64,000 nucleotides of DNA from Amoebophrya sp. A120 (Eukaryota > Protista > Dinoflagellata): positions 62,001-126,000 of the forward strand of contig CAJINV010000012.1 in the NCBI GenBank assembly GCA_905178155.1, in the 5' to 3' direction. Below are positions 444 to 63,501 of the stretch, one piece after another (within the stretch, counting starts at the first letter, position 1; the number at the start of each line of letters is the position of its first letter). The notes under the pieces were generated by a model. It worked only from the letters and a program-made list of their open reading frames with translations, had not been told where the DNA came from and made no database searches. Both the position numbers and the translations under genes were made by a program.

Positions 444-3400
444 TCACATCTTCGACTTGTGAAACAAAATTTTCCGTTCTTTCTCCCCAAGCGATGAAGT
501 GTAGTTTACACTATCCTTACTGTCCCTCAGTTTCTGCATGTCCCGTGCCTCCTTCTCCATCACCTTCAGAGCCTGCACTACCGTATTGAGAGGAAAAATC
601 CCCCCTCCCCATATTGAAAGCGCTTTCGTCTGAAAATTTGTGATGCAGATTTGAGGTCACAAATCCTGTCTGTCTTGCAAGAAGGCAAAGCCAGAGAGTC
701 CGCCGCATTATGCCGGCGGTTTGTGATGCTGTTGGGCTTACAGAGCCGACATCTGTCAATGTCATGCTAATCCCCTCATCAAAACCTCTCGACCCAGGCT
801 TGGCATATGCCTGCAGTCCTCTCCAGCAAGACAGACCTGATTTGTGTACGCAAATCCAGCATCAGAAACTTCGTTTCGATATGGGGAGGGGGGATTTTTC
901 CCTTTGATATACCGCCGGTCGCTGTTTAATTTTCTCGTACCACGCGTCTGCGTAAATCAGGCCGCAATCTTTCAAAGACCTATTCTGCTTTTCAAACCGC
1001 TTCCAGGGCTTGACCCAGGGCCACGCCGCCCTATTATCTATAGGAAAAATATTAAACTCCTGTCGATCTTCACTTGTGTAAGTAGCTGCTGTTTTTATTT
1101 GGTGGAGTGATAGCATATGCTGTTGAGTTCTTGTACATCATCTCTGCATTACAGAGCACATGCACAAAGCCTCTAGTGTACAAGTTAGTAGCACGGAACG
1201 ACGATGAAAACGTACACACATGAAGCCGAGAGGTGGACTTCGTGGTGGTCGTCTGGCATGACAAGTTGTGATAAACTTGTTTTAGTACATACTGGTCCTG
1301 CAACATCTTCACAGACTTACACTAATACAGAGTTCTTTTTTTCTTGCATACATATCCGCGATGGTATACTTGTCGCCGGCGAGAAAACCGGACGTCCTTA
1401 TGCACTGCAAAAGTATAATCGTACTCGTAGTGGTGGCGATAAATATGCGAAGACAAATCTCCTTCTCTAGGTAAATCCGCATGACAGGTTCCATTTGCTA
1501 TACTGAGGAAATTTGTCATGCGATGTATACGTAGGTGTAGCGCGATGCTTTTGCAGGGCATATTCCTCTCGACCCGCTTATCCAGAACGTGAAGCAATAT
1601 CGCAAGAAAAAAGTGTTACAGTTACGCATTGCGTTGCAACACCGGCAACACAGATAACCTTTCTCATGCAGGAAGTGCTTGCGAGCCTCGTTTCCTACGT
1701 ATTTTACCTTATGATCTTCGCATCACAAGTTATGCCTGCCACACAGGGAAAATTTGTGTTGCAGAAACTCCAACAAATGTGTAACTGTAGCACTTTTTTC
1801 TCGTGATAAGCAAGCGGGAATACTCAGTTGTACGCGCACGCGCAAGGCCGTATTCTGTAATATTACTGCAAGCCGCAGCAGCAGCAGCAGCACGAAGGCG
1901 GGATGGATCTGTTTCTTTTGCCTCGCATGTTGGCTGTTCATCCCCGCCATCAGTTGTCCTGGGCGGTGGAGCCGCGGTCAGCTATGAAGTGCAAAAGTAT
2001 TGCACTCGTATAAATGCATTACAAATTTCCTCAGCATGAGAAATAAAATTTGTAATGCAGTTTTTCCTTTTTAAGAGCAAGATTTGTAATGCATGTTTGC
2101 GATCACTACGAGTACGATACTTTTGCACAGAATATCAGCTGTGCTTGTACGATCTTTGGCGCGTAGTACAAGTAGTGTGAGACATATTGAAAGAAAAAAC
2201 TGCTTCACTGTAACTTTGTTGTAATGCAGGAAATGCATCGCCGAAGTGTTTGTCTTGCGACACATGCAAGACAAGTGATTTTTACCCGTGTTTTCCCTTA
2301 GCAGCAACCTCGCATGGCAAGTTTTCTTTGTCATGTGTAAGAGCGAACTTGTAATGCGAAACTTGCAAAATCCTTACAGCGAAGCAGTTTTTTCGTACGA
2401 TAAGACACTCCCCGCCACCGGCCCGAGGTTGCTGTTCACCCAGAACAGCCACTCCAAGATGTCTTTCTCGAACTTGTTGGGGAAAAATACTCGGCACTCC
2501 TTTCGGAACCACCGCTTTGCTAGCCAGTACATAATCGCCATCACTGTGAAAAAGCGCTTCTTCCCCCAAACCACACTTGTCAGGCGTATTGGTATTTGTA
2601 TAGTAATAGTGCGCAGACTGCGCTGTGTCATGCGCGTTTCTGCATGCTCTCGGGGACTTCCACTTTTCCATGTTTTAGGCAGGGTCAAAAGCTAGGTCTG
2701 TGATGCGACTGGGACTGGACTAGCTACCTCCCAGCGCCGGAACAAGACACTTCATGCGCAACAGCGAAGACTTTTTGGCCTGTGTAGCTGCAAAACTAAC
2801 TGCCATTTTCTAGTTGATTCTGGGTTCATCTTGCTGGGATGGACGTCGACGTCGTTTTCACACAGGATAATCGCACCTGACTCGAACAGGGTCTCTTGCA
2901 CTTCGAAGTTGGACGAACTAGATGCGCCATGGTCCTCAACATCATCGACTGTGTTGAGCTGTAAACTTCTTGTACTTCTATCGTGGTCAGCCTCAGCACT
3001 ACGAATTACCTCCACCGCAGGCATTTTCCCGTTCGGGCTGATTCTCAGGAAGTCCTCCCCATATTGCTCCCCCCGCGCTAAATCCACCGAAATATGGTGA
3101 AGAAAAATGATGTCCCCATCGTCCCAAAGTTTATTGTTGTCATGCAAATCCTCACCCCTAAAATGTAGTTTTTCATGCCGCAACCCCATGAGGAGCATTT
3201 TGTGATGCTGTAGTTCAGAAATCATTTGTCGTGCTCGAATCAGGATAAAACTGCGATCGGTTTGTGATGCGGCTGCACTAGCTAAATAGGACTACTTCTA
3301 CTTACTCTCCTACGGGCCTAAACTTGTCACACGCGACAGCCAAAGCTTGTGGATTTGTGTAGCAGATCACTCTTCATCTGGACGTATGGGGTGGGGACAT

Positions 3401-3540
3401 AATTTCTCTATAGGATACGGAATCACATCGAAATCGATGTTTGCCTCGAGCAGCAAAATTGCGACTTTCCAGCCGTTGGGTGTGGGGCTGTAGTGCAAAC
3501 GGACTCTGAGGTTTCGCGTGGAGGAGTTCATCTTGGACAT
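444..3540 (-). CDS. Glutathione S-transferase, YfcG/YghU/Ure2-like (Nu class), ~337 aa, 9 exons
   Basis: Exons 3540-3418,3087-2870,2533-2403,2179-2135,1977-1809,1592-1563,1393-1351,1029-910,578-444 (1014 nt, in frame). They give HYSPTPNGWKVAILL..VDLARGEQ..ISPNGKMPA..LFESGAIMYWLA..LEWLFWVNSNLGP..LHVLDKR..FLAGDKYTIADMAAWPWV..WYEKIKQRPAV, which are GST N- and C-domain motifs. Confidence 0.9.
584..909. mobile_element. Introner family A (TIR TAT..GAAAAATCCCCCCTCCCCATAT), GST intron
   Basis: ~30-nt TIRs; DR taccg at 579-583 and 910-914. Confidence 0.92.
1035..1350. mobile_element. Degenerate introner, GST intron
   Basis: TAT..ATA ends, weak TIR; DR cctat/catat; removal gives TIADMAAWPW. Confidence 0.75.
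1399..1562. mobile_element. Introner family C (TIR TATnnnnTGCAAAAGTATCG), GST intron
   Basis: TIRs; DR gtcct/ttcct. Confidence 0.87.
1598..1808. mobile_element. Introner family I, GST intron
   Basis: TIR tatcgcaagaaaaaagtgttacagttac / rc tatcacgagaaaaaagtgctacagttac; DR agcaa. Confidence 0.9.
1983..2134. mobile_element. Introner family C, GST intron
   Basis: TIRs; DR tcagc. Confidence 0.9.
2185..2402. mobile_element. Introner family I-like, GST intron
   Basis: TIR gaaaaaactgcttc(a/g)ctgtaa; DR agaca. Confidence 0.9.
2539..2869. mobile_element. Degenerate introner (B-like), GST intron
   Basis: DR atcgc; removal gives ESGAIMYWLA. Confidence 0.8.
3093..3417. mobile_element. Introner family B-like, GST intron
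   Basis: TIR ..aaa(t/a)t(g/t)atgtcccca; DR cgaaa/cggaa; removal gives VIPVDLARGEQ. Confidence 0.83.
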
Positions 3541-5668: not shown

Positions 5669-8600
5669 TCAGTTCAAGACAATCGCGCGCTGCTCCCCCT
5701 CACCGGTGATGGCGGCCAGCGCTTCCTCGTTAGCCAGCGTGTCCTATGAGAGTGGACAACTTCCCCCCCCTCATTTGTATGGCATCTACAGCATTACGAA
5801 CACCAGTACAGTTGGACACTGTGTATGACAAGTTAAAAAACGCCGATTGTAGTACTGTTTGAATTTCCGGAATTTGTCATGCACGCGGTGCCACAAGGTA
5901 GCAACTGGATTTGGGTTTTTGCATGACAAATGAGGGAGAGGGGGAGTTGTGCACTGTCATATGTCCGCAATCGCCTGAGCCAGCCGGTCGGCGACGGTCG
6001 CGGGCGATGGCGGTGCTGGTGCAACTCCAGCTCCTGCACTGGGTCGTGCAAGAACATCTTCAACCTGCCCAGCCGCAGCCGGCAATCCAACGACGCGGTT
6101 GTCATCATCGTCACTCATCCCAAAAACAGCAGCCTCGGGGACTGAGCGAACCATGTCCGGGGTGGTGATCAACATGGGACCACTTCTGGCCATGTTGATC
6201 ATCTCCTGCTGCTGGTTGTGGTCGTGCTGAGTAGATGAAGAACTACCACCAGCACCTCCCAAGAACGGGGCAGCTGCTCCTGCAGGCTGACCCGCCGGTT
6301 GTTCGAAGCCCAGCTGATGAAGTTGAAACATGGAGGCCGCGGGGGGTGTATCCTGTGCAAAACTATCGCATTCGTAGTAATTGCATTCATGCATTACAAA
6401 TTTCTTTCTCAAGGTGAATCAGCATTACAAATTCAATTTCTAATGCTGGGCTAGTTTGTAATGCAATTTATAGTAGTACGATGATTTTGCATTGCATAGG
6501 GTGTAATGGGCGGCAAAAATGTGCTGGTCAACATCAATCCCACGCGCATCGGGTCCGTCCCCGTTCTAGCGTCGAACAGCAGGGGCAGTAAGCCCTGTTG
6601 CTTTCGTATGCATTGCAAACATGGCTGGGTGTTCACTGGACGACAAAACGCAACACAAACGCGTTTTTCTGCATCATCAAGCAAAAGATCGCACTACTTT
6701 TCATCTTCGTGTTGGTCATGCTAGTAGTACAACACAGATTTTACAGATATTACGCAAGACCAAAAGCAAGAATACGCGCTTCAATCTAAAAATCTTCCAG
6801 AAGATGACAACCCAGATCGATTATATTTGCAGTGCATATTCAAGTGGTCCACGCTAATCAACCCATTTCGGGCGAACCCGAGCAGTTGGCCCCGGGTCAG
6901 GTTCCGCTTTAAGTCGAATTTCAGGCCGAAGGGAAACATGTATGGGGGTAGGGTGAGCAAGTCGCTTTCCGCCGTGTTATTAGGGTCCAAAATTTCGTGA
7001 CTTCTCACAATCCGGAAATCAACGCGCCAGTTTTTCAGACTATCGTTGTTGAAGTCGGTACCCATCAGCATCTGGTCGAAGTTCCTCACTCTCGACACGT
7101 CAAAATGCGCGAGATTTTCGTCGAAGCCTGTGCACCGCGAAAACATGCCCTCCATAGACCGCACTTGGGTCGTTTTCCAGTCAGAGAGGGAAAAACTTGT
7201 GTCTTTAAACAAATAGTCCCAAACCTATCCACAAAAAAAAAGAGCCATCCCCATACATTTTTTGCATGACAAACACTGTGACTTTCTGCATGTTTTGCAT
7301 GAGACAAATTGGATTTGGGGATGGGTTTCTTTTTGTGGATAAGACCTTCGTGGTTTGCCGGATCCGTCTTGCGTGGGTCCGGATGACGTGGTTCTCGAAC
7401 TCTCGTCGCGTTGCCTCCGGCAGGTCGGCGAACTGCGCTGGTGATCCATCCGCGTTTTGCAAATTCAGGTGTTGAAGAAATCTTTCCGTTTCCAAGTGAA
7501 ACACCTTGTCCATCTCAAATTGCTCGGCGTGCGGCTGGTAGAACTGGCAAAACTCGCCGAACAGGTTCGAAAGGTCTCCATCGTTCACCTGAGAGACATC
7601 CCAGGTTTGCGGTGCCCCATATTGCTCCTCGATGTACGCTCGATTTCCGCTGTTTTCCTCGTAGTTGGTATGGAGCTGTCAGAATCTTGAAATCGACAAA
7701 GTAAAAGAAATAATTTGTTGTAAGTATGTAATGCATGAAATGCGACGCAGAGGGTGCCTCTATTGCAGGGGACGCAAGGGAGACAGATGTATAATCCTGG
7801 TACGGGTCGCCAAGAGTTGGCGTTGGGCTGCTAACTAGCATGACAGAAGGGACGACGAGCTCTTTTTCCCTAAACCGCATGACAGGTTCGCGCCCAGGAG
7901 GGGGAAAAATTTGTCACGTGCCGACTCCAGATGACTGTGGGTCTAAAACTATCAAACTGGCATCGATTTTAGTGTGTGCGACAAACTCTTTCAACTTTGT
8001 CAATTTCGATCCTGAAGACACTCCCATACTTGATCTGGCGGAAGTAATACGTGATCGCGCGGAGCAGCACCGTTTTGTCTTTCGGGAAGGGCTTGTTTGG
8101 GAGCTTCACGTGCTTATCAGATCTTTCCCACTCGAAGTTTCGGTTTTTCTTGCCCGTAGACGACGACGACGAGGACGAGAAGAGGCTCGTTTTAGCGAGA
8201 TTTTTCCGGCTCCGGTAGTCCAGGCCCCGGAGGATAGCAGCCTGGGCGGGTTCTGGAAGGGAATCCAGATGTTCCACTTGCGGTTGTTGTACTCTTTCAA
8301 GATCTTCCGGGTGCACGTGCAGGGGAGAAGAAGTACTTCTAGAACATGGAACTCCTCCTGCTCTACTACTGCGAGAAAATGACGTTGAACCCTTTTTCAA
8401 GATGCTCTTCACGCTCCCCGCTGCTGGCGCTGCGCTACTACTACCCACTTGTAGCTGTCCACCTGCAGTAGCAGAAGTTGTCGTATTTCCGTCCAGCATC
8501 CACGCTTCCTCGTCGCTGCTCGCTTCCTCGGCGATCGTGGGTAAAACGGGGGCCGCCCTTGGCGTGCGAATCTTTCCTCGAAAACCAAGATTATTCTTGG

Positions 8601-9081
8601 AGCTAGTGATGGTGCGAGAAGAGGAAGAGGATGACAGAGGTGGCGGTCCAACTCGGGAGGACGAGAACGAGGAGCGACTACCACGGCTGCTCGTACTCTG
8701 GTAAGAGGACGAAGAAGACGATGATGAAGCAGCTCCTGCGCATCCTCGCTGCTCTCTCCTGCTGGTGGTACTGCAGCTTTCATCTCTATTCGCCGTGGTC
8801 AACAAAGTTGGCGCTCGTCCTGCAAGGCCACCTGTGAAATTGCCCCTGCTCTCAGGAACGACACCGCTGAACGAAGAGGCAGATGATGCGGCATTTCGAT
8901 TTCCGTGGTTACAACTCGCGTAGACCTGCTGTTTGCGATGCTTGTTCTTCTCGGAGGAGTCAACTACCGGTGATGTGGATATCGCACAACAGCTACTCGG
9001 TCCCGGGCCAGCCAGCACGCTGGAGACGGCGACGACGGACAGAAAGAAACCGAGTTGTGCATTGGAAGAAGGAGGAGCCAT
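5669..9081 (-). CDS. DUF285 (BspA-like surface repeat) protein with N-terminal hydrophobic signal and Ser-rich region, ~770 aa, 6 exons
   Basis: Exons 9081-8029,7663-7342,7220-6839,6601-6499,6343-5962,5739-5669 are in frame. YGAPQTWDVSQV..LSNLF and LSDWKTTQVRSMEGMF..FDENLAHFDVSRVRNFDQML..FNNDSLKNW match the 26-aa DUF285 repeat pattern. Confidence 0.75.
5745..5961. mobile_element. Introner family G (TIR TATGAnAGTGnACAACTnCCCCC)
   Basis: TIRs; DR tgtcc. Confidence 0.88.
6349..6498. mobile_element. Introner family C
   Basis: TIRs; DR gggtg. Confidence 0.9.
6607..6838. mobile_element. Degenerate introner family D
   Basis: TIR tatgca(t/c)tgcaaa..ctgggt; DR degenerate (tttcg/ttcaa); frame restored. 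Confidence 0.7.
7226..7341. mobile_element. Short introner (116 bp)
   Basis: TIR tatccacaaaaa..ccatcccca; DR aaacc/agacc. Confidence 0.87.
7669..8028. mobile_element. Introner family E (TIR TATGGGAGTGTCAGGATCGAAATCGACAAAGT)
   Basis: TIRs; DR gttgg/cttga; frame restored. Confidence 0.82.
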
Positions 9082-10482: not shown

Positions 10483-13400
10483 TCATCGCGGCGCTCTGCT
10501 TTCTTTCTTGCGGGCACGCCTGACCTTTTTCACCGCCAGGTGCCTGATCAGTTTTCGTTTTGCCTGCTCTTCCTCCTCATGTTTCTTCTTCACCGCTAAT
10601 GTGTCTGAGTCGTTATCAAGTCCGGCGGCTGGGCGCGATGGAGCATCACTGGCAATGGACACGACATGTCGATCTGAAACGTTGTCCCGAGCGTGGTCAT
10701 TTGCGACCCGTTTTTGAACGGGAGGATCTGCTGCTGCTGGAGTAGAAGTAATATTCGCGTCTACTTGTCCCGTATCTGATTGAGCAGTCTTGCAAAAGCG
10801 TCTCTTTCTCCTGGCCGGCGGCGGCGTGACATCGGCGTCCAGCTGACGAGGAGTGGGGCGTCGTACTCCCACCCTCCCCCTCGCAAGCATATTAATCGGG
10901 GTCACAGTTTTCTTTGCCCTTGGCGGCGCAGAACTTGAACTCTTCTTTCTGCGACGAGAAATAGCGTTGATCTTTTTCTCCTTGTTGAAGCCTTTTTTTC
11001 CCTTGGTGTCAATAATACGAATATCTTCAGTTTTCTCATCAAGTCGGCGCGGCAGTTGTTTTCGTGGGCTTCTCTGTTGAGCAGGTCTGGTGACCAGCTG
11101 CGCGACACGCTTGGATTTGCAGCTTGTTTTTGCGGCTCGTCTTGCTGCTCCTTGTCCACCATCTCCCGCGGCCGTGTGAGTTGCAAGAAAGCGAAGAACC
11201 TGTGCTAAGCCTGACGGACTTACGGACGACGTGCCGTTGCCTGGAGATGGATGCCAGTTAAACACATTTTCCGCTAGCCGTTTCAACCGTGCCGCTGCAT
11301 CTTCATTCTTCCGCGTGGTCTCTACCCCTGCAGCGCCAGCGGTTGCGGCCCCGAACAAAGCTTCCAGCAGCAACCTCATTTTCCGGCGGCCTTTGATCTC
11401 GTCGGACAAGACAACGGGCGAAGATGATGTCGTCTGCCCCCTGGTGGTGTTGCCATCAAACCCTGTAGCAGCTGTTGTTTCATCATCATCACTCCTTCCG
11501 CGTCGAGACCCGCCCATGTTGGAAGTAGCAGCGTCCTCCTCCTCGATGTCAACGAGATGACCCAACTCTTTGTAAAAGTCTTTTGCCAGCTGCAGTGCCG
11601 CCGTTGAGGGGGCCTCATGTTGATAAATCACCGCGCTCTGAATCTGGAACTGCGGGTATTACAATGAAGAATGCCCCCACCCCCCAATGTGCAAAAGTTT
11701 GTCATGCAAAGTTTCCAAATGAAAGCTTTTTGTGTTTGTCTTGCATGAAAGGATTGCGAGCCTTTCTGATGCAGAATCTAGGTGCGCAATGTGCCTTGTG
11801 CGTAACAGATCCGGCTGCTGTTGGGCCCCTTCGCAACACAAATTCGAGCTATTCAGCATGGAAAATTTGTGATGCTAAGATATGCAAGAAGGGAAATTTT
11901 TCTATTGGAAAGGTTTGCAATACAAATGCTGCCAAGTGTGGGGTGGGGGCACTTTTCACTGTAATAGCGGGCGCACTTGCTGCAAGCGGCGGATGAAATG
12001 GTCATTGTGGGATCCTTATGAAATGCAAAAGCATCGTACTAGTATAAATCGCATGACAAACTTCCTCAGCATGAGAAATAAAATTTGTATTACGGATTTA
12101 ACTTGAGAAAGAAATTTGTAATGCATAACTGCGATTACTACGAGTACGATACTTTTGCACAGGATAATCCTCCCATAATGAAGACTTTCGGCAGTTGTAG
12201 CTTTTTGCGCGTCGACGGCCCGGACGAAGACACCGACACAGGGGATGTTGACGATGAGGAGGTTTTTAATACTTGTGGATTTATTCTACTTCCCAGCACA
12301 CGACTGTCCTCGTCCTCGTGCCCCTTCACTGACTGGTCGTTCTCCCACTTTTTCACCAAGCGTCGGATCCAGACCAGATTACGGACGGTCACCAAATGTG
12401 GCAACGTCTCGCTGTGAAACAGGGCAGGGTTAGCATCAAATGCTGCTCGTGCCGGCGGGGAGTTACGCAACTGGTTCTCCAAAGCCAGTTCGGGGTCGTG
12501 GACGTGCTCGTCCACCGCGACCTGGGCGTCCACCTGCTCCACCATCGTCTGGTGCTTATTCTCACCGGCGACTGTGCCTTCCAAACCTTTTTGTTTTTCC
12601 CCAGCAGTGTTGACAGGCTCCTCAGAAGTTGGGCCTAACATCTTCTCGGCATTTTTAGGTTCGTCCTTCTGCTCTATCCTTGTCCGATGTTCAAATGGTG
12701 ACTCCTTCCACTTCCCCGGCGCGGGGCCCCATGGTGTCGCCTGTCCAGCACGGATGTAGTGGCGGACATCGAAGCTCTATGGGGGTGCCAGGCTGGTCGA
12801 AGTTCGCAAAATGCATACGTAAATCACTTACATTTCGTACATAATATATGATGTGCACAAAGTGCGAGCTGCGCGAGGTATACTCTCCTGCCTTGCAGGG
12901 AAGGGAAAAATGACAGACCGCCAGCTTGGTCAGTCAACAAGGTCAACATGGGATAAACGGCTGGCGAAGAGGACAATGGCAGGAGCTGCGTCCGTCTTTG
13001 CGCTAAACCGCACGGAAAATCAATGTCCGGACGTTGCCAACCTTTGATGTCATGCGGTGCTTCGAAATTGGGATCCCAAGAAGAGCTGGTACGTATTTTT
13101 AAACGTACGCGCCGAGGATTGATTTTGATTTTCATTTTTACATTTTCTGAGTGACTACACATTTACTCGACGATATCCACCCCTGATACCTTCATAAGTT
13201 CATTTGGTTTTCCAGAAATTTCATCTCGAGCAGTTCCTGCTCTTCCATGCGCAATCCTGCTCCCGTCCGCTCGTCGCTTCTGCTGCCCCACATCCTCGGA
13301 AAGAAGTCAACAACCTTTTTGTACATATTCGCTGCACAGGTGGCTCGGATGACGTCCACTGCTATTCGTAACAGCTCTTGCCGAACAGGCAGCTCTTCCG

Positions 13401-47181: not shown

Positions 47182-47417
47182 TATGAAATGCAAAAGTGTC
47201 TGGGTCTGGAAGATTCTGAGACTTGTCACGCATGTTTTGCATGAGCCTGGATGTCTGTAATGCACGACCTAGCATCACAGATTTTTAGAGGGCTCCCTGA
47301 CGCCTACTCCGCATGACAAACGCCCTCCCCGCGTCGCACAAACTAGACTCCTCTTGCTGGTCATGCAAAACAGATATTTTTACAATCCAAAGTTAGCATC
47401 ACAAGTTTCAACCTCCC
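47182..47417. mobile_element. Truncated introner family D in a pseudogene fragment
   Basis: Left TIR and interior match 58133-58397; right TIR lost where the array unit begins. Confidence 0.8.
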
Positions 47418-49173: not shown

Positions 49174-49406
49174 TATGAATTTGAATGTGCACAACCCCCC
49201 CTCACCCTCATTTGTCATGCAAAATGCGGAATCGAGGCTGTGCCGCTTCGCACTGTTTGCATGACAAGTTCTGGCAGCGGCAGCCCAAATAGCTGCACTA
49301 CAATCCTGTACAAATTTGTCATGCAAAACTGGCATTCTCGCTGGCGCTTGTACTATTGCCGTTCATGCTATACAAGCTAGGGCGAGGGGAGTTGTGCACT
49401 ACCATA
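49174..49406. mobile_element. Introner family G (downstream of the predicted stop)
   Basis: TIRs; DR gaaac/ggaac. Confidence 0.82.
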
Positions 49407-49458
49407 GGAACTCCGGTTGAATAGCCGGCAAGCCGTCCGCGCCGGCGCGCGGACGCAT

Positions 49459-53346: not shown

Positions 53347-56057
53347 CTAGACCTGCGCGAAGATGCCTCTGCATGCGGACGGATAAGAGGACGACCCCTT
53401 CTGTATTCGCACCCCGTTCTGGTATTTCACAGCCACCTCCTGTCCTGGCTTGCCCTCTATTCCATCGCCGTCTTGCTGGCCCCGCGCCCACGTCCCGTCA
53501 TACACATGCCCGTCGGGCCTGCAGTTTGTAAAACGGACCAGGAAGTACTTAGCGTTACAATTCTGAGATCAAAGCACACTGCTTGTCGTGGTTCCAAAAC
53601 GAAAAATGCCCGTAATGAACCCTCTAAAAATGAAAATGAAGAGCACACGACCACGCATATTAGAGTGAATATGAGGACGACGCCGGCCCTCGTTCCTCGC
53701 ACTACTTACCTTGTGATCATAGGTTAGTACTACACGACGCATGATGAAACTGCAAAAAGTAAAGGCTGTATTATACCATCGCATCTTGCCGCGCCCATGT
53801 CGGTGGTTCTCCAGGAAGTTGCCCTCGTTCGATATGCGAGCAAAACTCATCTTGTTTAACTCGAATGCCCCAATCATGAACTTGTGTTGCACATATCGCT
53901 TCATGTTGGTGATCATACTCGTGGTGCCACTACCACACGGTAGAAGGTAGCAGTAGCTTCTTTCCTAACATAGGTATCACCAAATACGCTTGTTCCGCAT
54001 GACAAACATACATTTTATTTATTCAATTTTCATAGGAAGAAACTCGTCCGTTTTGCTTCATTTCGCTCACGTACATGCTCGCCCGTCATTCCACGTCTGC
54101 TATGAACTGCAAAAGTATCGTACTAGTAGTAACCAGCCATGCTCCGGCTGCCGCCGGAGCGCAAGGCTGTTGGGCCGGGGCAAGGCTGTTTGCCGCTCGG
54201 ACCACAACCCCACGGGCCTAGTAGGCACAACGAAACGCACTGGATTCCTGCCGTCGATTTGCGCCGCGCCAAGCCGCAGGACCACTTGCGCGCCTCCCGC
54301 GCCTGTGGGCGCTCTGCGCAGGGAGCAGCTGCAAAAAACGCCGGGGGCGAACAGAAGCCGCATGGCGGGAGAGGGTGGCGCGGGAGGGTGGCGCGAGAGG
54401 GGTGCGCGAGAGGGTGGCGCGAGAGGGTGGCGCGAGAGGGTGCGCGAGAGGGTGGCACGGAAAGGCGCCGAACAAAACAAGTCCGCGAATGGCCTGCAGT
54501 GCGAAATATGGGCACTACCATGCGGATTCGCGCCCGCTTCTTTGTGCTTTTGCCCTCTCGCAGACCTCTCGCAGACCCTCTTTTTGGCCTCTTTTGGGGG
54601 TCCCCGCTAATAATCCGGCTATACTCGCGGGTAGAGGTCGACAGAGGTGGCCGAGAGGTGGCCAAGAGGGTCCGCGAGAGGTCGCCCCTTATTCGCAGCA
54701 CCTCTCTCCACCTCTGTCGACCTCTCGCGCCCCCTCTTTTTGACCTCTCTGCGCCCTCTGTGCCACTTAGGCGGCGCCTAAGGGTGGGCGCTTACTGCGG
54801 GCCTTATTCGCGCACCCTCTCGCGGACCCTCTCGAACGGGGTCCCGCGCCACCTCTCCACCTCTGTCGACCTCTTTTCTACCTCTGTCGACCTCTTTTTT
54901 ACCTCTCGGCCACCTCTCTGAGACCCTCTGTCTACCTCTTTTTTCGCATGAATATAATGTATAGTGATTGCAATACAAATTAGCTCAGCATGACAAATGG
55001 AATTTGTCATGCTGTTTTACCTTGAGAACGAGCTTTGTAATGCATAAATGCAATTACTACGAGTACGATACTTTTGCACAGGATATCTGCTTCCCCACGC
55101 CGATTTCTCCAGGGAAAAAATCACTTTTTGTGAGCAAAAACAATAAGATGCATATTCGTTTTTTTGTATGTGCGCCGAGGAAGCTCTTCTATGATGATAG
55201 AGGACATGCTGGCTCGAATATCGTGCATGACAAACAAACGGCTCAATGTAGAAGTGCTTGATGTAAAGTTATTTTTTGCCTCTGGATAGATGCTGCATGG
55301 AGTTGAAGAATGTGCCGTCGTACGTTGATTTCAGGCTCTTGTAGACACCTATAGTATAATTATGTTGTTGTTGGCTTTGTTTGCAGGTACACATCATTTC
55401 ATGATCATGTGCTGAAGCAGCGCAGCTAGCAGTTTCATTTTCATCATCACCAGCATCAACAAGTTCGCGCTTCAAAAAAGTAAGTACTTCACGCCGCTCT
55501 ACTGCACCAGCTGGCCTTCTTCAAGCATGACACAAGCATTTATTTCCAGCTTTCAGCTATACCTCTCCCTTGTATGATGTCGTTTTGGAAGTCGCCCTCG
55601 TATTGGCTTCCGTCCTCCCAAACGTACTGACCCCTCCCGTGCTTCATGCCGTTGACATACTCGCCCACGTAGACAGATTTATCCTCGAACCACACTTCGC
55701 GGCCTTACTACAGTGAAAAATGCCCCCACCCCCAAAGTTGCAAAAAATTATTGTGATGCGAAGTTTCCAAATGAAAACCTTTTGCCATGCATGAAAGGAG
55801 TATGAATCTTTCTGATGCAGAGTCTAGGCGTGTATCGCATCGTTTGCATGACAAGTGCCACTCTTGCTGGGGTCTTTTGCAATACAAATTTTTGCTATTC
55901 ACGATTAGAAACCTGTGATGCTGATAGATGCAAGAGGGCAGATGTTTCATTTGGAAAGGTTTGCAATACAAATGCTCCCAAGTTCGGGGGTGGGGGCATT
56001 TTTCATTGTAATAGGCCTCTCCCATGCTTCTTGTCCTGCATCCACTGTCCTTCATAC
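53347..56057 (-). CDS. MORN-repeat protein (5' end not determined)
   Basis: Spliced YEGQWMQDKKHGRGREVW..YVGEYVNGMKHGRGQYVWEDGSQYEGDFQNDIIQGRGVY..YDGTFFNSMQHGVGKQTWNDGRAYEGNFLENHRHGRGKMRWPDGHVYDGTWARGQQDGDG; 4 introners + 2 canonical introns. Confidence 0.85.
53519..53776 (-). other. Canonical GT-AG intron
   Basis: GTATAA...CTGCAG; gives RWPDGHVY. Confidence 0.78.
53833..54073. mobile_element. Degenerate introner
   Basis: TIR tatgcgagcaaaa / rc tacgtgagcgaaa; DR eroded (ttcga/catgc); MORN frame restored. Confidence 0.72.
54101..55085. mobile_element. Introner family C expanded by a ~830-bp GC-rich insert
   Basis: TIRs; DR tctgc; insert ~54131-54962. Confidence 0.87.
55106..55288. mobile_element. 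Degenerate introner
   Basis: TIR tctccagggaaaaaatcacttt / rc tatccagaggcaaaaaataacttt; MORN frame restored. Confidence 0.7.
55349..55562 (-). other. Canonical GT-AG intron
   Basis: GTATAG...CTATAG; gives QGRGVYK. Confidence 0.78.
55706..56013. mobile_element. Introner family H
   Basis: TIRs; DR ggcct. Confidence 0.9.
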
Positions 56058-56793: not shown

Positions 56794-59700
56794 CTAGACT
56801 TTCACCAAAGCTAAGTAACCGCCCTTCCTCAGGTACTCTTCTTGCTTTGCGGCGGGGGTTTGCTTTTGCTTCTCCCGTTCCAGCCAGGGGCTGCTAAACT
56901 CCAAATCGACCGCCCAACTCATCAGCAACCGGGCCCATCTATGAAGGCGTCAGGATCGAAATCAACAAAGTCGAAAAAATCAGGAAGGCAGATCATAGTC
57001 CTGAAAAGGGTTGCGAGTTGGGCTGCTGACTAGCATGACATAAGGGAGCCGAGCTCTTTGGCCCTAAACTACCGCATGACAGATTCGCTTCGAGAACGGG
57101 GAAAGTCTACAAGAACTGTCCCGCGCCGACTACAAACTGCAGGTCTAACTGGCATCGATTTTGTGCATCACATTTTTTTCGATTTTGTCGATTTCGAACC
57201 TGACACCCCCATACCACCCGCTGCGTCCGTAGTCTCGGCCGGCGTTGAAGTAAACCGTGTCGGAAGTCGTCTCTTCCAGCCATCCGCAACTGTCGATGCA
57301 CGCCGGCCCGAGAAAAAATTTCCCGAATTTTTTCGTGTGGCAGTGGATCAGCGCCATCGTTTGGACGTCCGCGAAGGGGTTCAGCGCATCGCCGTACCGT
57401 CCCAACCCCGCGTGCTCGATGGAGGAGTAGGAAAACCACATGTCATATCCACTGCAAAAAGCATCGCACTCTTAGTAATTGCATTTATACATTACAAATT
57501 TCTTTCTCAAGACAAATCAGCATTACAAATAATTCAATTTGTAATGCTGGGCTAATTTGTAATGCAGTTTATACTAGTGCGATGCTTTTGCAGTTCATAT
57601 GTCAAAATCGAAAGACACATCGCTCGTCAGTAGCTCGTGGAAAAACAAAAACCGCCATCGCTTGTGGGGGTATCGGGGTTGTATCGACGTGCTTTTCTTC
57701 TCGTCGAAGACTCCGTCTAGCTCGTCCGGATGCCCCTCCACGGGTGGTTATGCATTACAAAAGCATCATTACTAGTAGTAGAAATCGCATTACAAATAAT
57801 TCGGTCAGCATGTTGACACATGGAATTTTTTGTCATGCTGTTTTACGTTGGGGTAGAGATAATTTGTAATGCATGACTGCGATTATAATTGCTACGAGAA
57901 GTGCGATACAATTTTTGCACAGGATAGTGGTTTATCCTGTGCAAAAGTATCGCACTCGTACAAATGCTAATGCAAGTCTTGCATTACAAATCTTGTTTCC
58001 ACGGCAAATCTGCATTACAAATTTTATTTCTCATGCTGAGGAAATTTGTAATGCATTTATACGAATACGATACTTTTGCACAGGATAGTGGTTTCCGGTA
58101 GTCAACCGTGGTTACGATCGCGGTGGGGAAGCTATCACATGCAAAAGTGTCTGGGTCTGGAGTGTTGCCGAGTTTGTCATGCATACTTTGCATGACCCAG
58201 GATGTCTGTAATGCACGCCCTAGCATCACAGATTTTTAGATGGCTTCCTGATGCCTACTCCGCATGACAAATGCTCTCCCGCCCGCGTAGCACCAACTAG
58301 ACTCCTCTTGCTGGTCATGCAATACAGATTTTTTTAGAGTCCAAGGTTAGCATCACAAGTTCCAACCTTCCAGACCCAGACATTATTGCATTTGATAGAA
58401 GCGGTACAGCAGCAAAATCTCCATCCAGGGCTGCTCACTGCCCAGAACCGCGATTTTCAAATTAATTTCCTGCTGGCCCAGCAACACCGTTTTGTCGTTC
58501 TCGTTGTGCCAGGTCTATCAAAATGAGAAATCCCCCCGCCCCATATCAAAACGGAAATTTGTGATGCTGCTTCGTGGCCACAAATCAGCTTTGTATTGCA
58601 GAGAGGAATGGCGGCCAGATCCCCAGGCTAGGTAGGGGCTTATGTGTCTAGTTGTTCAGCATGGCAAACGGCTCCCCTTTAGGCCTAACAGCATGACAAA
58701 CCGCCTCCATAATGGGGCGAAAGCTTCTGCCCTTGTCTTCTTGCAAAACAGATGTGATTTGTGACCTCAAATCCGCAACACAAATTTTTGGACACATACC
58801 TTTTCAATGTGGGGAGGGGGGATTTTTCCTCTCAGTAAGGTCTTGTTCGAATTCGCGAAAAACGTATCGCGGTTCCGCATGATCGCCGCGTCAAGAATGA
58901 AGACCGTGTCGTCTTGGTAACTGGAAACGGTTTCGTTTACGAAATGGAGATATGCATTGCAGACGTATCGCGCTAGTATAAATTGCATTACAAATCGACT
59001 TACCATTACAAATTGAATTTCTATTGCGGATTTGCCTTCAGAAAAATATTTGTAAATGCATAAACGCAATTAAAACGAGTGCGATACTTTTGCACTGCAT
59101 AGGAGAAACACCAAATCGCTGTCCGTCCAGAGATTCAGTGCGTAGTCGCGCTTGAGCGCTCTCTATGAGATGCAAATGTGTCTGGGTCTGGAAACTTGTG
59201 ATGCTAAAATGTGCACGATGAAAACGCTTCCGAATGCAGTCCGGCTTGACAACTTCCCAAAACGCTTTCTGATATGCAATCCGCATGAGAAACTGTGTTT
59301 TTGCATGACAAAAGAGGCTGCGACTTTTGTTGGTTATGCAATGCAGATTTTCTAGGTATGGAAAGCTAGCATTACAAGCTCCAACCTTCCAGACCCAGAC
59401 ATTTTTGCAATGCATACTCTCTTTTCCAAGATGTTGCGGTAAAGTTTCTGCTTGGTCTCCAGCGCAATCCGTCGGTTTTCCGACAACCCAGCGTGTCATG
59501 AATTGCAAAAGTATCGTTATCGTATTCCTATTCGGATAAATGCATTACAAATTTCCTCAGCACGAGAAATGAAATTTGTAATGCTGATTTACCTTAAGAG
59601 ATGAATGAGAAAGATTCGTAATGCATGACTGCAATACGAGTGCGATACTTTTGCACAGGATACGTGTTGCATCCACCCGAAAGGATTGCGGAGCAGCAGT

Positions 59701-62700
59701 TTTCCGAAGGTCTGCGCGTTCCATTTGTGCGACAGCTCTTCCTGGAGTGGCGGAGCGATGGGACGATTGTGGTCTTCGAATTGGGTAGTTTCCTCGTTGG
59801 CGAAAGAGCCGGGTTTGTAGTCCTCTTGCATCTGGTCGCCTTTCTCCTCGTCATTGTTCTCTAAATAAGAAGGTTTTGACGTACTAGATTCTACTCCATC
59901 ATCATGAACATGATCCCCCACGACCTCTCGTGCCCAGCTGTCGTTACTGGACTTCTGCATGTAGAACGCGTTCTTCTTTACCGCTTTTCCGTACAGCAAA
60001 AGATCGCGTCGGTAAATTTCTGGGATCCTCAAGGGCGGGGGCCACAGGTGCGACTCGGCCATGCGAAGCCCGGGGGACTGCTTCAACAGCTCGCACTTGG
60101 GGTAGACCAGTTTTTCGCTGATTTTTTCCATAATTTTCTCGTCTACTACTTGGTGGTGCTCTTGCAGTTGTTCCGCATTCGATCCTATCTCGGTAGAACT
60201 TGCTGTGCCGCCCTGCTGTAGTGGCTCTTTATCCGCCACAAGTTCCCGCTGATAGTAAACGATCTCCCGACTCTGCACCTTATTTCGGGCGATTTCCCCA
60301 CTGCAAACGTCCTCCCCGCACCCGATCCGCTGCAATGGTGCGAGTCTCTCGTAGTAGATCTTCGCTACATTGTCCATGAAATCCCCGATTTTGGACGCCA
60401 GGTGGGCGAATTCCTGTTGGATGCGGAAGAGTTTGGTGCGCAGTTCGAAGATGTTTTGCTTGTAGAACTTCGCTATAACAAACTCGTCGATGTACTCCAA
60501 CTCGTCTTCAATGGATTTCCGCAGCGAGGAGAGTAGTACAGCATTGCTGTCGTCACAGGGCGGGTCATCATGTTGTTCCTCGTGTTCTTGGCCCTTTTGC
60601 TGCTGTTCGCCATTCTGTAGTTCCTGTCCGGCATTGATTCGCAACCTTTGTTGTTGAACAAGAAGAACTTCCTGTACTTGCTTCTCCCGCCCCGCTACCA
60701 CGCTTTTCCTGAACTTCTGCAAATGTTGCCAGTGATGGTTGAAGTAGGTGGTGTGCTCGATTAAAGGGAGAAGGAAGGAATGAAGCGTGATCGGCTGTCG
60801 GTGAAATGACTGCTGCTCGTCCTTGTAATCCGTCCCTTCGTAGTTATTCAAGTTCTCGACACCCCCGAGCACGATCCTCGTCGGCGCCAAATTCTCAATT
60901 TCCCCCGCAACGTCCTCACCGGTCAGCAAGGTTGTGTTGGTAGTCGGCTCGAAAAATGCGTCCGCGCGCCGTAACGCCTGCCGGATCTGCAGCGCCAGGT
61001 CTTCGTGGGTCGAGAGAATTTTCAGGAGTTTGAACATTTCTTTTGGGTGGGTGTAGCGACCGGTCGAAAAATCATGCGTCTTCGCTGGTGGACGTCGACC
61101 AAGAACTTCTTGTGTGCCGCCGCTTGATGTTCTTGCCACCGGCCCAACGACCTTCGCAAATTCTTCGTCCGTCTTTTGCATCTGCTGCTCCAGCGCTGTC
61201 GCGTCGAATGGAAGGTGAGCGTCGTGTAAAGATGCAGCCGTAGCATGATCATCTCCTTCGTTATCAGAATTTCTATCGGTCGCATTCACCACGCCGAGCG
61301 CTTTCCCCAGGTCAATCTTCGAGGCCACCCTTCCGGTCCTGTCCCGCCCGAGCCCGTCCGCGTCTGGTGCAGCGGCTGCATCGTTATCAAGTGTAAAAAT
61401 GTCTGGGTCTGGAAGAATGCGCGATTTGTCATGCTTCTCTGGCATGAGACTTAAACCTGTCATGCAGGTTACCCAAGATCCCCAATTTCCTGTCATGCAA
61501 AGACGCAGTTTGTCATGCAGAATAGGCAACACCTAGAAGCTCAGAAACTTGTCATGCTGAGCCAGCACTTATGGCCTCCTCATGATACGCCACCCAGCAT
61601 CACAAGTTTCCAGACCTAGACATTTTTACATTTGATAATCGTCTTGGAATAGCAAAGCGGCGTACTGAAAAATGTTCATCATTTCTCCGCTTTGCTCAGC
61701 CTTCTCCAGCATCTCCTCTTTCTCCCATATCAAATGCAAAAGTGTCTGGGTCTGCAAGATTGCCAGGTTTGTCATGCACATTTTGCATGACTCCTGATGT
61801 CTGTGATGCATGCCCTAGCATCACAGATTTTGTGAGGGCTTCCTGATGCCTATACCGAATGACAAATGCTCCTTCCGTGTACGCAAAACTTGGACTCTCT
61901 TTGCTGCTCATGCAATACAGATTTTTTTAGAATCCAAAATCAGCATGACAAGTTGGATTCTTCCAGACCCAGACAGTTTTGCAGTTGATATCCCAGGTGT
62001 GAGCCCGGTAGTCGTGAATCAATGTCTGGATGTTCATCCTGTCCAGTTTCGACAGTGATAGAGTCGTGCCGGAAGCTGTTGTACTAGAGGACTCTTTGTT
62101 CGAGCTCGACGTGCCCGCTTGGTCCTCCTCGTTTGTGCTTCTGGAGGACAATACGTCAGGACTTGCATGATCCGTTCCGGTTTGAAGAACTGAGTCTGTG
62201 GTGCCTCCACCTGCGTCAATCCTACTTGTTCCCCCTTTCACCCCCAAAACCCGACGATCTGGGTACAGCAGCTCCACTAATGGCATCAAAATTCTCCGCA
62301 GGATATTCTGGTACGTCTCACACGCGAACCTCGCCACGTCCCACAAATTCGGTTTCGCGGCATGCACCGCTTCATCTACGTTCGACATTTTCTCAATGCC
62401 AAAAATGCTGCCGTCGGTATTCTCCGAGCGGAGGCAGGCCTGGTTCAATTTCAGCCCGATGTTGACTTTCTTGCCTGATGAAGTAGATGATGAGCCAGAT
62501 GATGGGTTTTTTGATGACTCATGATCTCCTTGACTTCCTACTTCTCCTGGTGCTGTTGTCATGTGAGATTCCTGGTCAACATCTTCGTGCTGCTCCACTC
62601 CACCTGCGTCCTCAGATGTAGTTCTGGTTTCTGATGGGAGGAGGTTGTCGATCTGTCCATCAAAAAAGGCGTCGTCATCGCTGTCACCTACAAGAAGTTC

Positions 62701-63501
62701 CGCCATTCCCAGCTTTCCCAAGCAGTAGCTGAGTTCTATCCACTGCAAAAGTGTCTGGGTCTGGAAGAATCCAACTTGTCATGCTGATTTTGGATTCTAA
62801 AAAAATCTGTATTGCATGAGCAGCAAAGAGAGTCCAAGTTTTGCTACACGTCGGAAAGAGCATTTTCCATGCGGTATAGGCATCAGGAAGCCCTCACACA
62901 ATCTGTGATGCTAGGGCATGCATCACAGACATCATGAGTCATCCAAAATGTGCATGACAAACCTGGCAATCTTCCAGAGGACCCAGACACTTTTACATTT
63001 GATAAGTTCCGCGGTTTCGCAATCTATGGTCTTCGTGTACAGGGGTGTGTCCCAGCAGCACCGGTTGAAATTCAGAGGTGAAGATGTCATGCTGGAACCG
63101 CTAGAAGTACTACTGCCCGGATTATCGAAACAAACGTCGTTTGCGTTCGGACCCTCTACACAGCAATTTTCGTAGTTCAAATGGACAGCCCAGGGGTCGG
63201 TGAAGCAGAAAAACTCATCCCGGTAGAAGGTTAACTGGCCGGAAGGCTGGGCGAGGGCGAAGAAGAAGATCATGATGTTGCTGACGGTCAAAATTGTCGC
63301 TGCGAGCAGGGATAGAACCAGCGGAAAGGGACGACAGCGACCCGCGCTTCTCGTGCTGGTCGTCCGGAATAGGATTACTGCCAGATGAGTAGTTGAGGGT
63401 TTGGTGGAGGTTCCGCGTCCGGAACAAAATAAAACCCCATTTCCTCGTGGTCCGCCTCTACTCCGCCTTCGGTGCCGCATGTGTTGCAGTCGCGGCGCCA
63501 T
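56794..63501 (-). CDS. Large membrane-anchored/secreted protein with C-terminal DUF268 (methyltransferase-like) domain, ~1314 aa, 12 exons
   Basis: Exons 63501-63005,62731-61991,61722-61638,61379-59663,59491-59417,59158-59102,58945-58838,58510-58398,58127-58088,57743-57600,57440-57214,56934-56794 are in frame. IAVLGSEQPWME..TTVDY..FDMWFSYSSIEHAGLGRYGDALNPFAD..FFLGP..VYFNAGRDYG is the DUF268 signature; 3' end uncertain. Confidence 0.82.
56940..57213. mobile_element. Introner family E
   Basis: TIRs; DR ccatc/ccacc. Confidence 0.87.
57446..57599. mobile_element. Introner family C
   Basis: TIRs; DR tgtca. Confidence 0.9.
57749..57926. mobile_element. Introner family C (twin, element 1)
   Basis: TIRs; DR gtggt. 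Confidence 0.88.
57933..58087. mobile_element. Introner family C (twin, element 2)
   Basis: TIRs; flanked by gtggtt on both sides. Confidence 0.88.
58133..58397. mobile_element. Introner family D
   Basis: TIRs; DR gaagc. Confidence 0.92.
58516..58837. mobile_element. Introner family A
   Basis: TIRs (5' end TAC on minus); DR aggtc. Confidence 0.9.
58951..59101. mobile_element. Introner family C
   Basis: TIRs; DR ggaga. Confidence 0.9.
59164..59416. mobile_element. Introner family D
   Basis: TIRs; DR ctctc. Confidence 0.92.
59497..59662. mobile_element. Introner family C
   Basis: TIRs (left end cat); DR cgtgt. Confidence 0.88.
61385..61637. mobile_element. Introner family D
   Basis: TIRs; DR atcgt. 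Confidence 0.9.
61728..61990. mobile_element. Introner family D
   Basis: TIRs; DR tccca. Confidence 0.92.
62737..63004. mobile_element. Introner family D, inverted near-copy of 61728-61990
   Basis: TIRs; DR agttc. Confidence 0.92.

What the first reader, a model, noticed from the sequence alone, without database searches (positions are those of the whole stretch)
584..63004. Window-wide non-GT-AG intron system: 51 TIR + 5-nt direct-repeat elements removed precisely from genes
Seen: 51 elements (mostly 116-420 bp, >=8 unrelated TIR families) share one grammar, [5-nt DR]-TA(T/C)..TIR..interior..TIR..ATA-[5-nt DR]. For those inside coding sequence, removing the element plus one DR restores conserved motifs. 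This holds for RPS19 (2/2 introns), the GST (8/8) and the DUF268 gene (11/11), none with GT-AG. Known: IR/DR 'introner' non-canonical introns were reported in Amoebophrya genomes (Farhat et al. 2021), and to my knowledge their excision machinery and autonomous transposase are unresolved. Inference: there is a dedicated removal pathway, either structure-guided RNA splicing or IES-like DNA elimination (TA ends plus pointer-like repeats).
Basis: partly seen in the sequence, partly recalled or inferred. Interest (0 to 1): 0.88.

Follow-up and report, generated by a model that had tools for sequence, protein, structure and literature searches.

The report
Known hairpin introns, fixed cut position
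These are the already published hairpin-ended, transposon-like introns of the marine parasite Amoebophrya A120; transcript assemblies lack each one exactly while the DNA keeps it, and the cut likely falls at one fixed spot, likely made by a modified spliceosome, which would make the open question of their removal testable.

Summary
Real, but published: this is the introner-element system of Amoebophrya sp. A120 (Farhat 2021). A window GST exon is 100% identical to an A120 protein.

I count 46 complete units, not 51; 29 of 46 have an exact 5-nt repeat. In four RNA-like runs (one sample), 12 of 12 elements in the tested stretch are skipped as element + 5 nt, including a 7,545-nt one. DNA-like contigs keep the elements, so IES-like elimination is not supported.

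Not found in the texts I searched (figures unseen):
(1) nine junctions with mismatched repeats fit one register, intron = N-TAT…ATA-NNNN;
(2) T at +2 is conserved at the transcript-5′ end, while its mirror at the 3′ end decays;
(3) nearly all families share an internal GCATNACA-like motif;
(4) a probable non-LTR retroelement sits inside introners at that motif.

Best reading: integrase-type MITEs removed from RNA, likely by a U1-less, hairpin-guided spliceosome; a nuclease-plus-ligase route is the main rival. One GST intron is GT-AG. The scan noted similar introns in other genomes.

The parts
444..3540 (-). GST gene, 337 aa, 8 introner introns
584..909 (-). introner, ~323-bp family, exact repeat
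   Evidence: ORF and annotated protein
1035..1350 (-). degenerate introner; GT-AG at register 4; weak TIR; gives lower bound >=4
1399..1562 (-). introner, ~151-bp family; gives upper bound <=4
1598..1808 (-). introner, ~211-bp family
1983..2134 (-). introner, ~151-bp family
2185..2402 (-). introner, ~211-bp family
2539..2869 (-). introner, singleton; terminus mutated at transcript-3' end
3093..3417 (-). introner, ~284-bp family; bound >=3
5669..9081 (-). gene, 770 aa after removing 5 introners
5745..5961 (-). introner, ~217-bp family
6349..6498 (-). introner, ~151-bp family
6607..6838 (-). degenerate introner, repeat 2 of 5
7226..7341 (-). introner, ~112-bp family
7669..8028 (-). introner, repeat 3 of 5
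10483..14936 (-). gene, 1,061 aa after removing 4 introners; spliced RNA-like contig
11657..11966 (-). introner, ~311-bp family
12017..12166 (-). introner, ~151-bp family
12778..13196 (-). introner, singleton; absent from the RNA-like contig, present in the DNA-like contig; bound >=3
14021..14389 (-). degenerate introner, repeat 3 of 5; spliced; bound >=3
17385..17649 (-). introner, ~262-bp family; spliced in 4 of 4 runs; bound >=4
19496..20628 (-). RPS19 gene, 161 aa, 2 introners; transcript contigs match this locus including 3' UTR
19830..20153 (-). introner, ~323-bp family; spliced in 4 of 4 runs
20221..20533 (-). introner, singleton; joint listed in 3 of 4 runs
21706..34900 (-). zinc-finger gene (zf-C2H2_13); ORF 1,141 aa from the first Met at 34305; 9 introners and 1 GT-AG intron; upstream end approximate
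21998..22322 (-). introner, ~323-bp family, opposite orientation to 19830; spliced in 4 of 4 runs
23380..23641 (-). introner; terminus mutated at transcript-3' end yet spliced in 4 of 4 runs
23716..23865 (-). introner; spliced in 4 of 4 runs; bound >=2
24735..25019 (-). introner, ~284-bp family; spliced in 4 of 4 runs
25558..25820 (-). introner, ~262-bp family; joint listed in 3 of 4 runs
26063..26208 (-). introner; spliced in 4 of 4 runs; upper bound <=4
26383..26545 (-). introner, ~151-bp family; spliced in 4 of 4 runs
26632..34171 (-). 7,540-bp introner holding a nested retroelement; skipped as 7,545 nt in 4 of 4 runs; bound >=1
26854..34097 (-). nested probable non-LTR retroelement, tandem-triplet tail at left, short target duplication; limits approximate
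27805..33606 (-). 1,933-codon frame; weak RVT_1 match (E 0.011, below cut-off); endonuclease motifs judged by eye; no RNA depth
34330..34584 (-). introner, singleton; spliced in 4 of 4 runs
34651..34839 (-). ordinary GT-AG intron, begins GTATGA; joint in 3 of 4 runs
47182..47418 (.). truncated copy of the ~262-bp family, left end only, in a repeat-rich tract
49174..49406 (.). introner, ~217-bp family, outside the modelled ORF
49834..50188 (-). degenerate introner, ~311-bp family; terminus mutated at transcript-3' end
50284..50801 (-). introner with nested 256-nt tail fragment of the retroelement (50329-50584, 96% identical)
50932..51228 (-). introner, ~262-bp family, repeat 3 of 5
54101..55085 (.). 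~151-bp-family introner with a nested ~830-bp repeat; host gene not established
55706..56013 (-). introner, ~311-bp family, in a short ORF
56794..63501 (-). DUF268-domain gene, 1,314 aa after removing 11 units
56940..57213 (-). introner
57446..57599 (-). introner, ~151-bp family
57749..58087 (-). two tandem ~151-bp-family copies (57749-57926, 57933-58087); frame is restored if removed as one intron
58133..58397 (-). introner, ~262-bp family
58516..58837 (-). introner, ~323-bp family
58951..59101 (-). introner, ~151-bp family
59164..59416 (-). introner, ~262-bp family
59497..59662 (-). introner; terminus mutated at transcript-3' end
61385..61637 (-). introner, ~262-bp family
61728..61990 (-). 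introner, ~262-bp family
62737..63004 (-). introner, ~262-bp family

Best explanation
The elements are the published Amoebophrya A120 introners: repeated TAT…ATA-ended inserts flanked by a 5-bp repeat, likely spread by an integrase-type DNA transposase, that stay in the DNA and are missing exactly from transcript assemblies, likely cut at one fixed register by a likely U1-less, hairpin-guided spliceosome. Shown: the 5-bp repeat, precise loss of element + 5 nt from RNA-like contigs in either element orientation, retention in DNA-like contigs, and indifference to intron positions +1, -2 and -1. Strongly inferred: the register. Four repeat letters stay on the upstream exon and one on the downstream exon, so the intron is N-TAT…ATA-NNNN. 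Inferred: the TIR supplies U+2, A+3 and U+4 of a 5' splice site in both orientations, the hairpin stands in for U1 and U2AF by joining the ends, and the 3' cut is measured four nucleotides from the hairpin foot. Inferred: the shared internal GCATNACA-like motif is a transposase-binding site on DNA, not a splice signal.
For: Organism. Skips: 12 of 12 elements in 16801-35200 and 2 more exact joints; 14 of 14 equal element + 5. DNA retention. Register: 6 RNA junctions (>=4, >=3, >=3, >=2, >=1, <=4) and 3 from the annotated GST, which matches my model with 0 differences only at register 4; chance under a random register 0.005. All 9 predominant A120 non-canonical classes in Farhat Table S4 have T at +2, as do all 9 for A25. 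Polarity: termini mutated at TIR positions 1-2 lie at the transcript-3' end in 4 of 4 window cases and 9 of 11 positions in related loci (p 0.03; pooled p 0.004). On a second strand test one exception flips and the firm exception keeps T at +2 with G at +3. The one ordinary intron checked begins GTATGA. U1 was not detected in A25 or A120, while the GT-AG strain from Karlodinium has U1. A tunicate precedent for spliceosomal removal of non-GT-AG introns exists. An integrase-like candidate with 5-bp TSD and TA/TA ends is on record. Motif: 28 of 29 cluster representatives, 15.4 against 1.9 sites per kb.
Against: No excised intron was observed, so no branch point is known; the A at -7 shows no clear extra conservation (7 against 4). 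No bias for G at +1 or AG at the end (10 of 248 GT-AG), which is hard to square with standard spliceosome chemistry (recalled). Old conserved introns are 98.6% canonical, so the ordinary machinery still seems to need GT-AG. Only two junctions pin each side of the register, three of the nine come second-hand from an annotation whose aligner favours GT-AG, and contigs hide minor products. The RNA runs are one sample and their RNA label is a guess. Strand calls in related loci come from a codon model trained on the window. No transposase was found in 64 frames scanned.
Confidence: 0.55

Rival explanations
1. Spliceosome-independent RNA splicing: an endonuclease reads the hairpin foot, cuts 1 nt before and 4 nt after the stem, and a ligase joins the exons, as proposed for euglenid and diplonemid nonconventional introns.
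For: No constraint at +1, -2 or -1. End hairpins are strong (median z -8.2 over 46). Old introns stay GT-AG. Euglenid introns of like shape leave as circles, and RNase III or tRNA-type routes are proposed (passages).
Against: T at +2 is kept at the 5' end but not at the mirror position, which a two-fold symmetric nuclease would not predict, though an asymmetric one could. N-TAT matches the start of the ordinary intron here. One element has become GT-AG at the same register with a decayed TIR.
Confidence: 0.33
2. IES-like DNA elimination: the elements are cut from DNA in some life stage, and transcripts come from element-free DNA.
For: TA ends and short flanking repeats resemble ciliate IES ends and pointers (recalled). 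The DNA joint table was cut (796 rows not shown), contigs drop rare forms, and not every life stage was sampled.
Against: DNA-like contigs cross five whole elements (1035, 2539, 6607, 7226, 12778) and many junctions unbroken at 42-50x with 0 other letters. A separate metagenome assembly also holds hundreds of intact copies. End conservation follows transcript direction. Repeats with 3 of 5 or 4 of 5 identity are still removed exactly.
Confidence: 0.04
3. The skips come from polymerase hopping between the direct repeats: a reverse-transcriptase template-switch artefact, or RNA polymerase II skipping a hairpin.
For: Hairpins flanked by short direct repeats are the known setting for template switching (recalled). 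All RNA evidence here is cDNA-derived contigs.
Against: One joint has only 1 shared letter at the cut and one spans 7,545 nt in 4 of 4 runs. Removal is needed to give RPS19, GST and other long frames. The 5'-specific T at +2 is not predicted.
Confidence: 0.05
4. The genes are pseudogenes broken by MITEs and intact paralogues are the expressed copies.
For: The whole genome could not be searched for paralogues.
Against: Spliced contigs match this locus with 0-1 other letters over long stretches, including 1.2 kb beyond the RPS19 stop. Frames of 337-1,314 codons stay intact.
Confidence: 0.01

Closest known systems
Introner elements among the non-canonical introns of Amoebophrya sp. A120 (Farhat et al. 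2021, PMC7789003)
   Same: Same organism. Same TAT-N7-AAA inverted-repeat start, 3-5-nt direct repeats with a 5-bp example, hairpin, many families and RNA-confirmed removal.
   Different: The paper's text calls the border position variable or unknown and reports no clear splice signature. The fixed 4|1 register, the polarity at +2, the shared internal motif and nested retroelements are not in the text I read. Figs 3, 4, S19 and S23 were not visible and may already show the register; the S23 legend places A120 repeats '1-5' nucleotides from the splice sites.
A120 introner family 38, Ginger-like TIR element (Gozashti et al. 2025, PMC12130899)
   Same: 5-bp TSD and TA/TA termini; 58 A120 families, many of the same lengths as here.
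   Different: Family 38 is about 808 bp with integrase-like homology; no such coding copy was found in the window or in the frames scanned. The paper notes it lacks the usual Ginger termini and TSD.
Nonconventional introns of euglenids and diplonemids (PMC11282704, PMC12621601)
   Same: Paired ends, TSD-like repeats, non-GT-AG junctions, and coexistence with GT-AG introns.
   Different: Their stem pairs +4..+6 with -8..-6 and they leave as circles. Here the stem runs from +2 to -5 and the excised form is unknown.
Non-canonical introns of the tunicate Fritillaria borealis (PMC13326754)
   Same: MITE-derived introns outside the GT-AG rule, handled by an adapted U2 spliceosome.
   Different: They keep preferred end dinucleotides and the species keeps U1 and has duplicated U2AF. 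Here +1, -2 and -1 are free and U1 was not detected.
Ciliate internal eliminated sequences (recalled)
   Same: TA ends, transposon origin, insertion in coding sequence.
   Different: IESs are removed from DNA; these stay in the DNA sampled and carry a variable 5-bp repeat.

Membership tests
Amoebophrya A120 introner elements | Host is Amoebophrya sp. A120 | tested here: met
   Exon 100% identical, and spliced model identical, to a 337-aa A120 protein
Amoebophrya A120 introner elements | Inverted repeat begins TAT, seven variable letters, then a run of A | tested here: met
   94 ends: T 91, A 93, T 91; A at positions 11-14 in 73-84; definition
Amoebophrya A120 introner elements | 3-5-nt direct repeat at the borders | tested here: met
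   5 nt: 241 of 306 exact in related loci, 29 of 46 in the window
Amoebophrya A120 introner elements | Repeated in families | tested here: met
   31 clusters among 326 copies; element bins at depth in the thousands
Amoebophrya A120 introner elements | Removed from transcripts with non-GT-AG ends | tested here: met
   14 of 14 joints equal element + 5 and none can be slid to GT-AG
Non-autonomous TIR DNA transposon (MITE) | TIRs, fixed-length target duplication, no coding capacity | tested here: met
Non-autonomous TIR DNA transposon (MITE) | Cognate autonomous transposase with the same ends | tested here: inconclusive
   None in 64 frames from the window and loci; genome not available; candidate in print
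U2-type spliceosomal intron | GT or GC at +1/+2 and AG at -2/-1 | tested here: not met
   10 of 248 at register 4; 1 of 46 in the window. Lowers 'is a canonical U2 intron', not 'is removed by a modified spliceosome'
U2-type spliceosomal intron | U at +2 and purine at +3, needed only at the 5' end | tested here: met
   46 of 46 window 5' ends have T, A; asymmetry in loci; small numbers
U2-type spliceosomal intron | Lariat with branch-point adenosine; dependence on U2/U5/U6 | not testable with these tools
   No excised-intron or perturbation data
Euglenid-type nonconventional intron | Stem between +4..+6 and -8..-6, pyrimidine|purine junctions | tested here: not met
   Stem from +2 to -5; junction letters unbiased; definition
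Euglenid-type nonconventional intron | Released as a full-length circle | not testable with these tools
   Only contigs were available
Ciliate-type IES | Absent from the expressed DNA | tested here: not met
   DNA-like contigs cross elements unbroken at genome depth; life stages not resolved
Non-LTR retrotransposon (nested insert) | Reverse transcriptase domain | tested here: inconclusive
   RVT_1 E 0.011, below the curated cut-off; no homologue at E<=0.001; fold model unusable
Non-LTR retrotransposon (nested insert) | Simple-repeat tail, 5'-truncated copies, target duplication | tested here: met
   Tail copies of 256 and 187 nt plus the full copy; short duplication in the two window copies, not evident in L033

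The most novel reading that the evidence does not exclude
Amoebophrya A120 has a splicing mode that needs only a hairpin plus U at +2 and a purine at +3. It cuts one nucleotide before the stem and four after it and ignores all three other canonical end positions, so any insertion of this transposon group, in either orientation and even carrying a 7-kb retroelement, becomes a perfect intron. All families are moved by one integrase-type transposase that binds a shared motif spaced about 16 and 32 bp apart, and a non-LTR retroelement targets that motif to hide inside the introns.
Probability: 0.4. Interest if true: 0.78.

Novelty: already known. Interest (0 to 1): 0.45.

Why it matters
How Amoebophrya removes tens of thousands of non-GT-AG introns has been open since 2021. 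A fixed register and a one-sided need for U at +2 turn that into direct tests: where to look for a branch point, which ends an excised intron should have, and which U6 contacts to check. They also give a rule for annotating this genome. If a spliceosome really ignores +1, -2 and -1, that widens what its catalytic core is thought to tolerate. The system itself is not new.

Tried and rejected
1. Whole-genome work: no genome is held for this window, so paralogues, snRNAs and transposases could not be searched.

2. Raw RNA reads: no holder is on record as RNA. Of three 2026 raw-read runs with the same species label I laid one (X9); 1 read matched, so it says nothing.

3. Joined form in DNA: the joint table was swamped by repeat copies (796 rows not shown), so absence there is not claimed.

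4. AT-bias test of which repeat copy is intronic: no consistent signal.

5. Excess of repeat mismatches at third codon positions (27 of 40) and phase bias (103:42:57) in the related loci did not replicate in the window's verified frames (8 of 23; 17:15:12). Left inconclusive.

6. A branch point at -7: no significant extra conservation.

7. Weaker TIRs in GT-AG elements: true for the single window case, not for 9 in the loci (p 0.36; detection required a TIR).

8. Helical phasing of the internal motif: a 10.5-bp period gives p about 0.02 and 0.002, but a 16-bp period fits better and families are not independent. Suggestive only.

9. Transposase hunt: 0 matches in viral contigs; no transposase family in 26 frames from long elements and nested inserts and 38 of 127 long frames in the loci.

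10. Identity of the 1,933-codon frame: no hit in Pfam on the whole protein, NCBIfam, PDB sequences or the homologue search; fold pLDDT 30; the Atlas and representative searches gave no answer.

11. Annotated protein for the 770-aa gene: not found, so a third test at repeat position 5 was not possible.

12. Candidate 309-414 was dropped before counting (no repeat).

Full report
Observation. The grammar is real. A strict scan for TA…TA ends with an exact 5-nt repeat gave 19 elements against 0-1 per shuffle. Looser scans and manual curation gave 46 complete units plus one truncated copy; one candidate without a repeat was dropped. I could not reach 51. The repeat is exact in 29 of 46. To test the repeat length without assuming it, I fetched 154 related loci from a metagenome assembly (561 kb, partly overlapping) and searched by end profile and TIR pairing only. 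Of 306 elements, 241 had an exact 5-nt repeat; lengths 4 and 6-10 gave at most 1 each, and lengths 2 and 3 were at chance. Removing element + 5 nt gives long frames: GST 337 aa, RPS19 161 aa, and others of 770, 1,061, 1,141 and 1,314 aa. Other removal lengths do not. Of the 46 units, 43 lie inside modelled coding spans, which cover 16.3 kb against 27.3 kb of other sequence.

Identity. A GST exon is 100% identical to a 337-aa protein named Amoebophrya sp. A120. Farhat et al. 2021 (PMC7789003; I read the abstract, sections 10, 11, 12, 16, 25, passages, supplement part 2 of 5 and table hits; no figures) describe exactly these elements: inverted repeats starting TAT, seven variable letters and a run of A, 3-5-nt direct repeats, 29,850 copies in 1,954 families, RNA-confirmed, border position 'unknown', U1 not detected. 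Gozashti et al. 2025 (PMC12130899; passages and 41 of 58 A120 dataset rows; two supplement files not searched) add a family with integrase-like homology annotated 'Ginger, 5-bp TSD, TA/TA termini'. The system is therefore already known.

RNA or DNA. In four RNA-like runs from one sample, all 12 catalogued elements in 16801-35200 are skipped as element + 5 nt, 10 of them in 4 of 4 runs and 2 in 3 of 4. The other listed joints were one GT-AG intron and two cross-copy joints; one row was not shown. One more contig gives two exact joints and two by length. None of the 14 exact joints can be slid to GT-AG. Copies of one family in opposite orientations are both removed (19830 and 21998). In a DNA-like run, contigs at 42-50x cross five whole elements unbroken; one of them (12778) is missing from the RNA-like contig. 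Rare or stage-specific element-free DNA cannot be excluded from contigs, but nothing supports it.

Register. Where the two repeat copies differ, the transcript shows which copy was kept. Six RNA junctions give cuts after position >=4, >=3, >=3, >=2, >=1 and <=4 of the upstream copy. The annotated GST equals my model with no differences only at register 4 (two differences at 0-2, one at 3, one at 5), adding >=3, >=4 and <=4. The chance that nine junctions all admit register 4 under a random register is 0.005. The intron is then N-TAT…ATA-NNNN. Farhat's Table S4 fits: all nine predominant A120 classes have T second, though aligner bias could contribute. The authors' Fig. S23 may already show this; I saw only its legend.

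Polarity. Positions +1, -2 and -1 are free: 10 of 248 elements are GT-AG, near expectation. TIR positions 1-2 are intact at all 46 transcript-5' ends in the window but mutated at four 3' ends; two of those four have transcript or annotation support for removal. In the related loci, 18 of 262 elements had a changed terminus; among 225 with a strand call, positions 1-2 were changed 9 times at the 3' end and twice at the 5' end (p 0.03; pooled p 0.004). A second strand test flipped one exception; the other keeps T at +2 and has G at +3. So removal has a direction and reads U at +2.

Mechanism. Shown: precise, orientation-independent loss from transcript contigs. Inferred: a spliceosome without U1 that takes N-UAU as its 5' site and uses the hairpin to place the 3' cut. 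The window's ordinary intron starts GTATGA (one case). U6 pairing with U at +4 is discussed in PMC13326754 (abstract and first part of the Discussion). The GT-AG Amoebophrya strain from Karlodinium has U1 (PMC12005148, passages). Against: no branch point, no end-dinucleotide bias, and old introns stay canonical. The main rival is a nuclease plus ligase, as proposed for euglenozoan introns (PMC11282704 and PMC12621601, passages). I put these at 0.55 and 0.33.

Shared motif. Interiors of 28 of 29 cluster representatives hold GCA-NN-ACA, 14-fold over background; all 47 window copies have it, at 15.4 against 1.9 per kb. Same-orientation sites peak 31-33 bp apart and opposite ones at about 16 and 46-49 bp. 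This suggests a DNA-binding site for one transposase serving all families; the periodicity test is only suggestive.

Nested inserts. The unit at 26632-34171 holds a 7.2-kb insert with a 1,933-codon frame, a weak RVT_1 match and a triplet tail; it has no RNA depth and the whole 7,545 nt is skipped. Truncated tail copies sit in another window introner and in L033 (98.9% identical). All 3 copies with both flanks visible are inside introners at a GCAT site. A LINE that targets a DNA transposon has a precedent that I only recall (Tx1 in Xenopus); one search did not verify it.

What is not in print. Searches listed no paper that resolves the removal mechanism. PMC11453091 and PMC9860276 (passages) add nothing on register. 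Subscription papers, figures and bioRxiv supplements were not visible. Earlier scan notes on other genomes describe similar hairpin-bounded introns and a position-set 3' site; I did not test them, and my register reading (note) came first. The look-up for this genome was empty.

Verdict. Observation largely right, system already known, DNA elimination unsupported. The register, polarity, shared motif and nested retroelement are useful refinements that make the mechanism testable. Interest 0.45.

Noticed in passing
window 26854-34097; 50329-50584; L033 5364-5550: Probable non-LTR retroelement with a very divergent 1,933-codon frame. All 3 copies with visible flanks lie inside introners at a GCAT site; loose ends hint at further copies in introner-like sequence.
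   Followed up: partly
window 54132-54964; L022 776-1568; L100 1-80: A second nested repeat of about 830 bp with GC-rich internal repeats, 77% identical to a copy in an introner-like setting in L022; no Pfam hit.
   Followed up: partly
window 57749-58087: Two same-family elements in tandem, the second with an apparent 6-nt duplication. The frame is kept if both leave as one intron using the outer ends; no RNA test.
   Followed up: partly
window 1035-1350: An introner that has become GT-AG through a repeat mismatch and has a decayed TIR: a possible intermediate towards an ordinary intron.
   Followed up: partly
window 34646-34839: The ordinary GT-AG intron also has a 5-nt repeat: its first five letters recur at the start of the next exon.
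   Followed up: no
all element ends: TIR positions 4-7 are variable and pair poorly between ends (43-60%) compared with positions 1-3 (94-98%) and 8-14 (77-89%); this may be a spacer between cut site and binding site.
   Followed up: partly
related loci L001-L154: Insertion phase is skewed 103:42:57 and repeat mismatches favour third codon positions; neither replicated in the window.
   Followed up: yes
window 36400-48900: Element-poor tract of long dispersed repeats (up to 100% identical, 4-9 kb apart), a 7/14-bp tandem array at 42030-42580, GC-rich tandem repeats at 43100-43900, three copies of a 109-bp unit at 48600-48930 and an assembly gap at 40933-41064.
   Followed up: no
window 18311-19496: RPS19 transcript contigs extend about 1.2 kb past the stop codon, with no introner in that stretch.
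   Followed up: no
whole window: All nine modelled genes lie on the minus strand, in line with the co-oriented clusters reported for Amoebophrya.
   Followed up: no
window 6844-7221: Exon of the 770-aa gene resembles proteins carrying PF03382.
   Followed up: no
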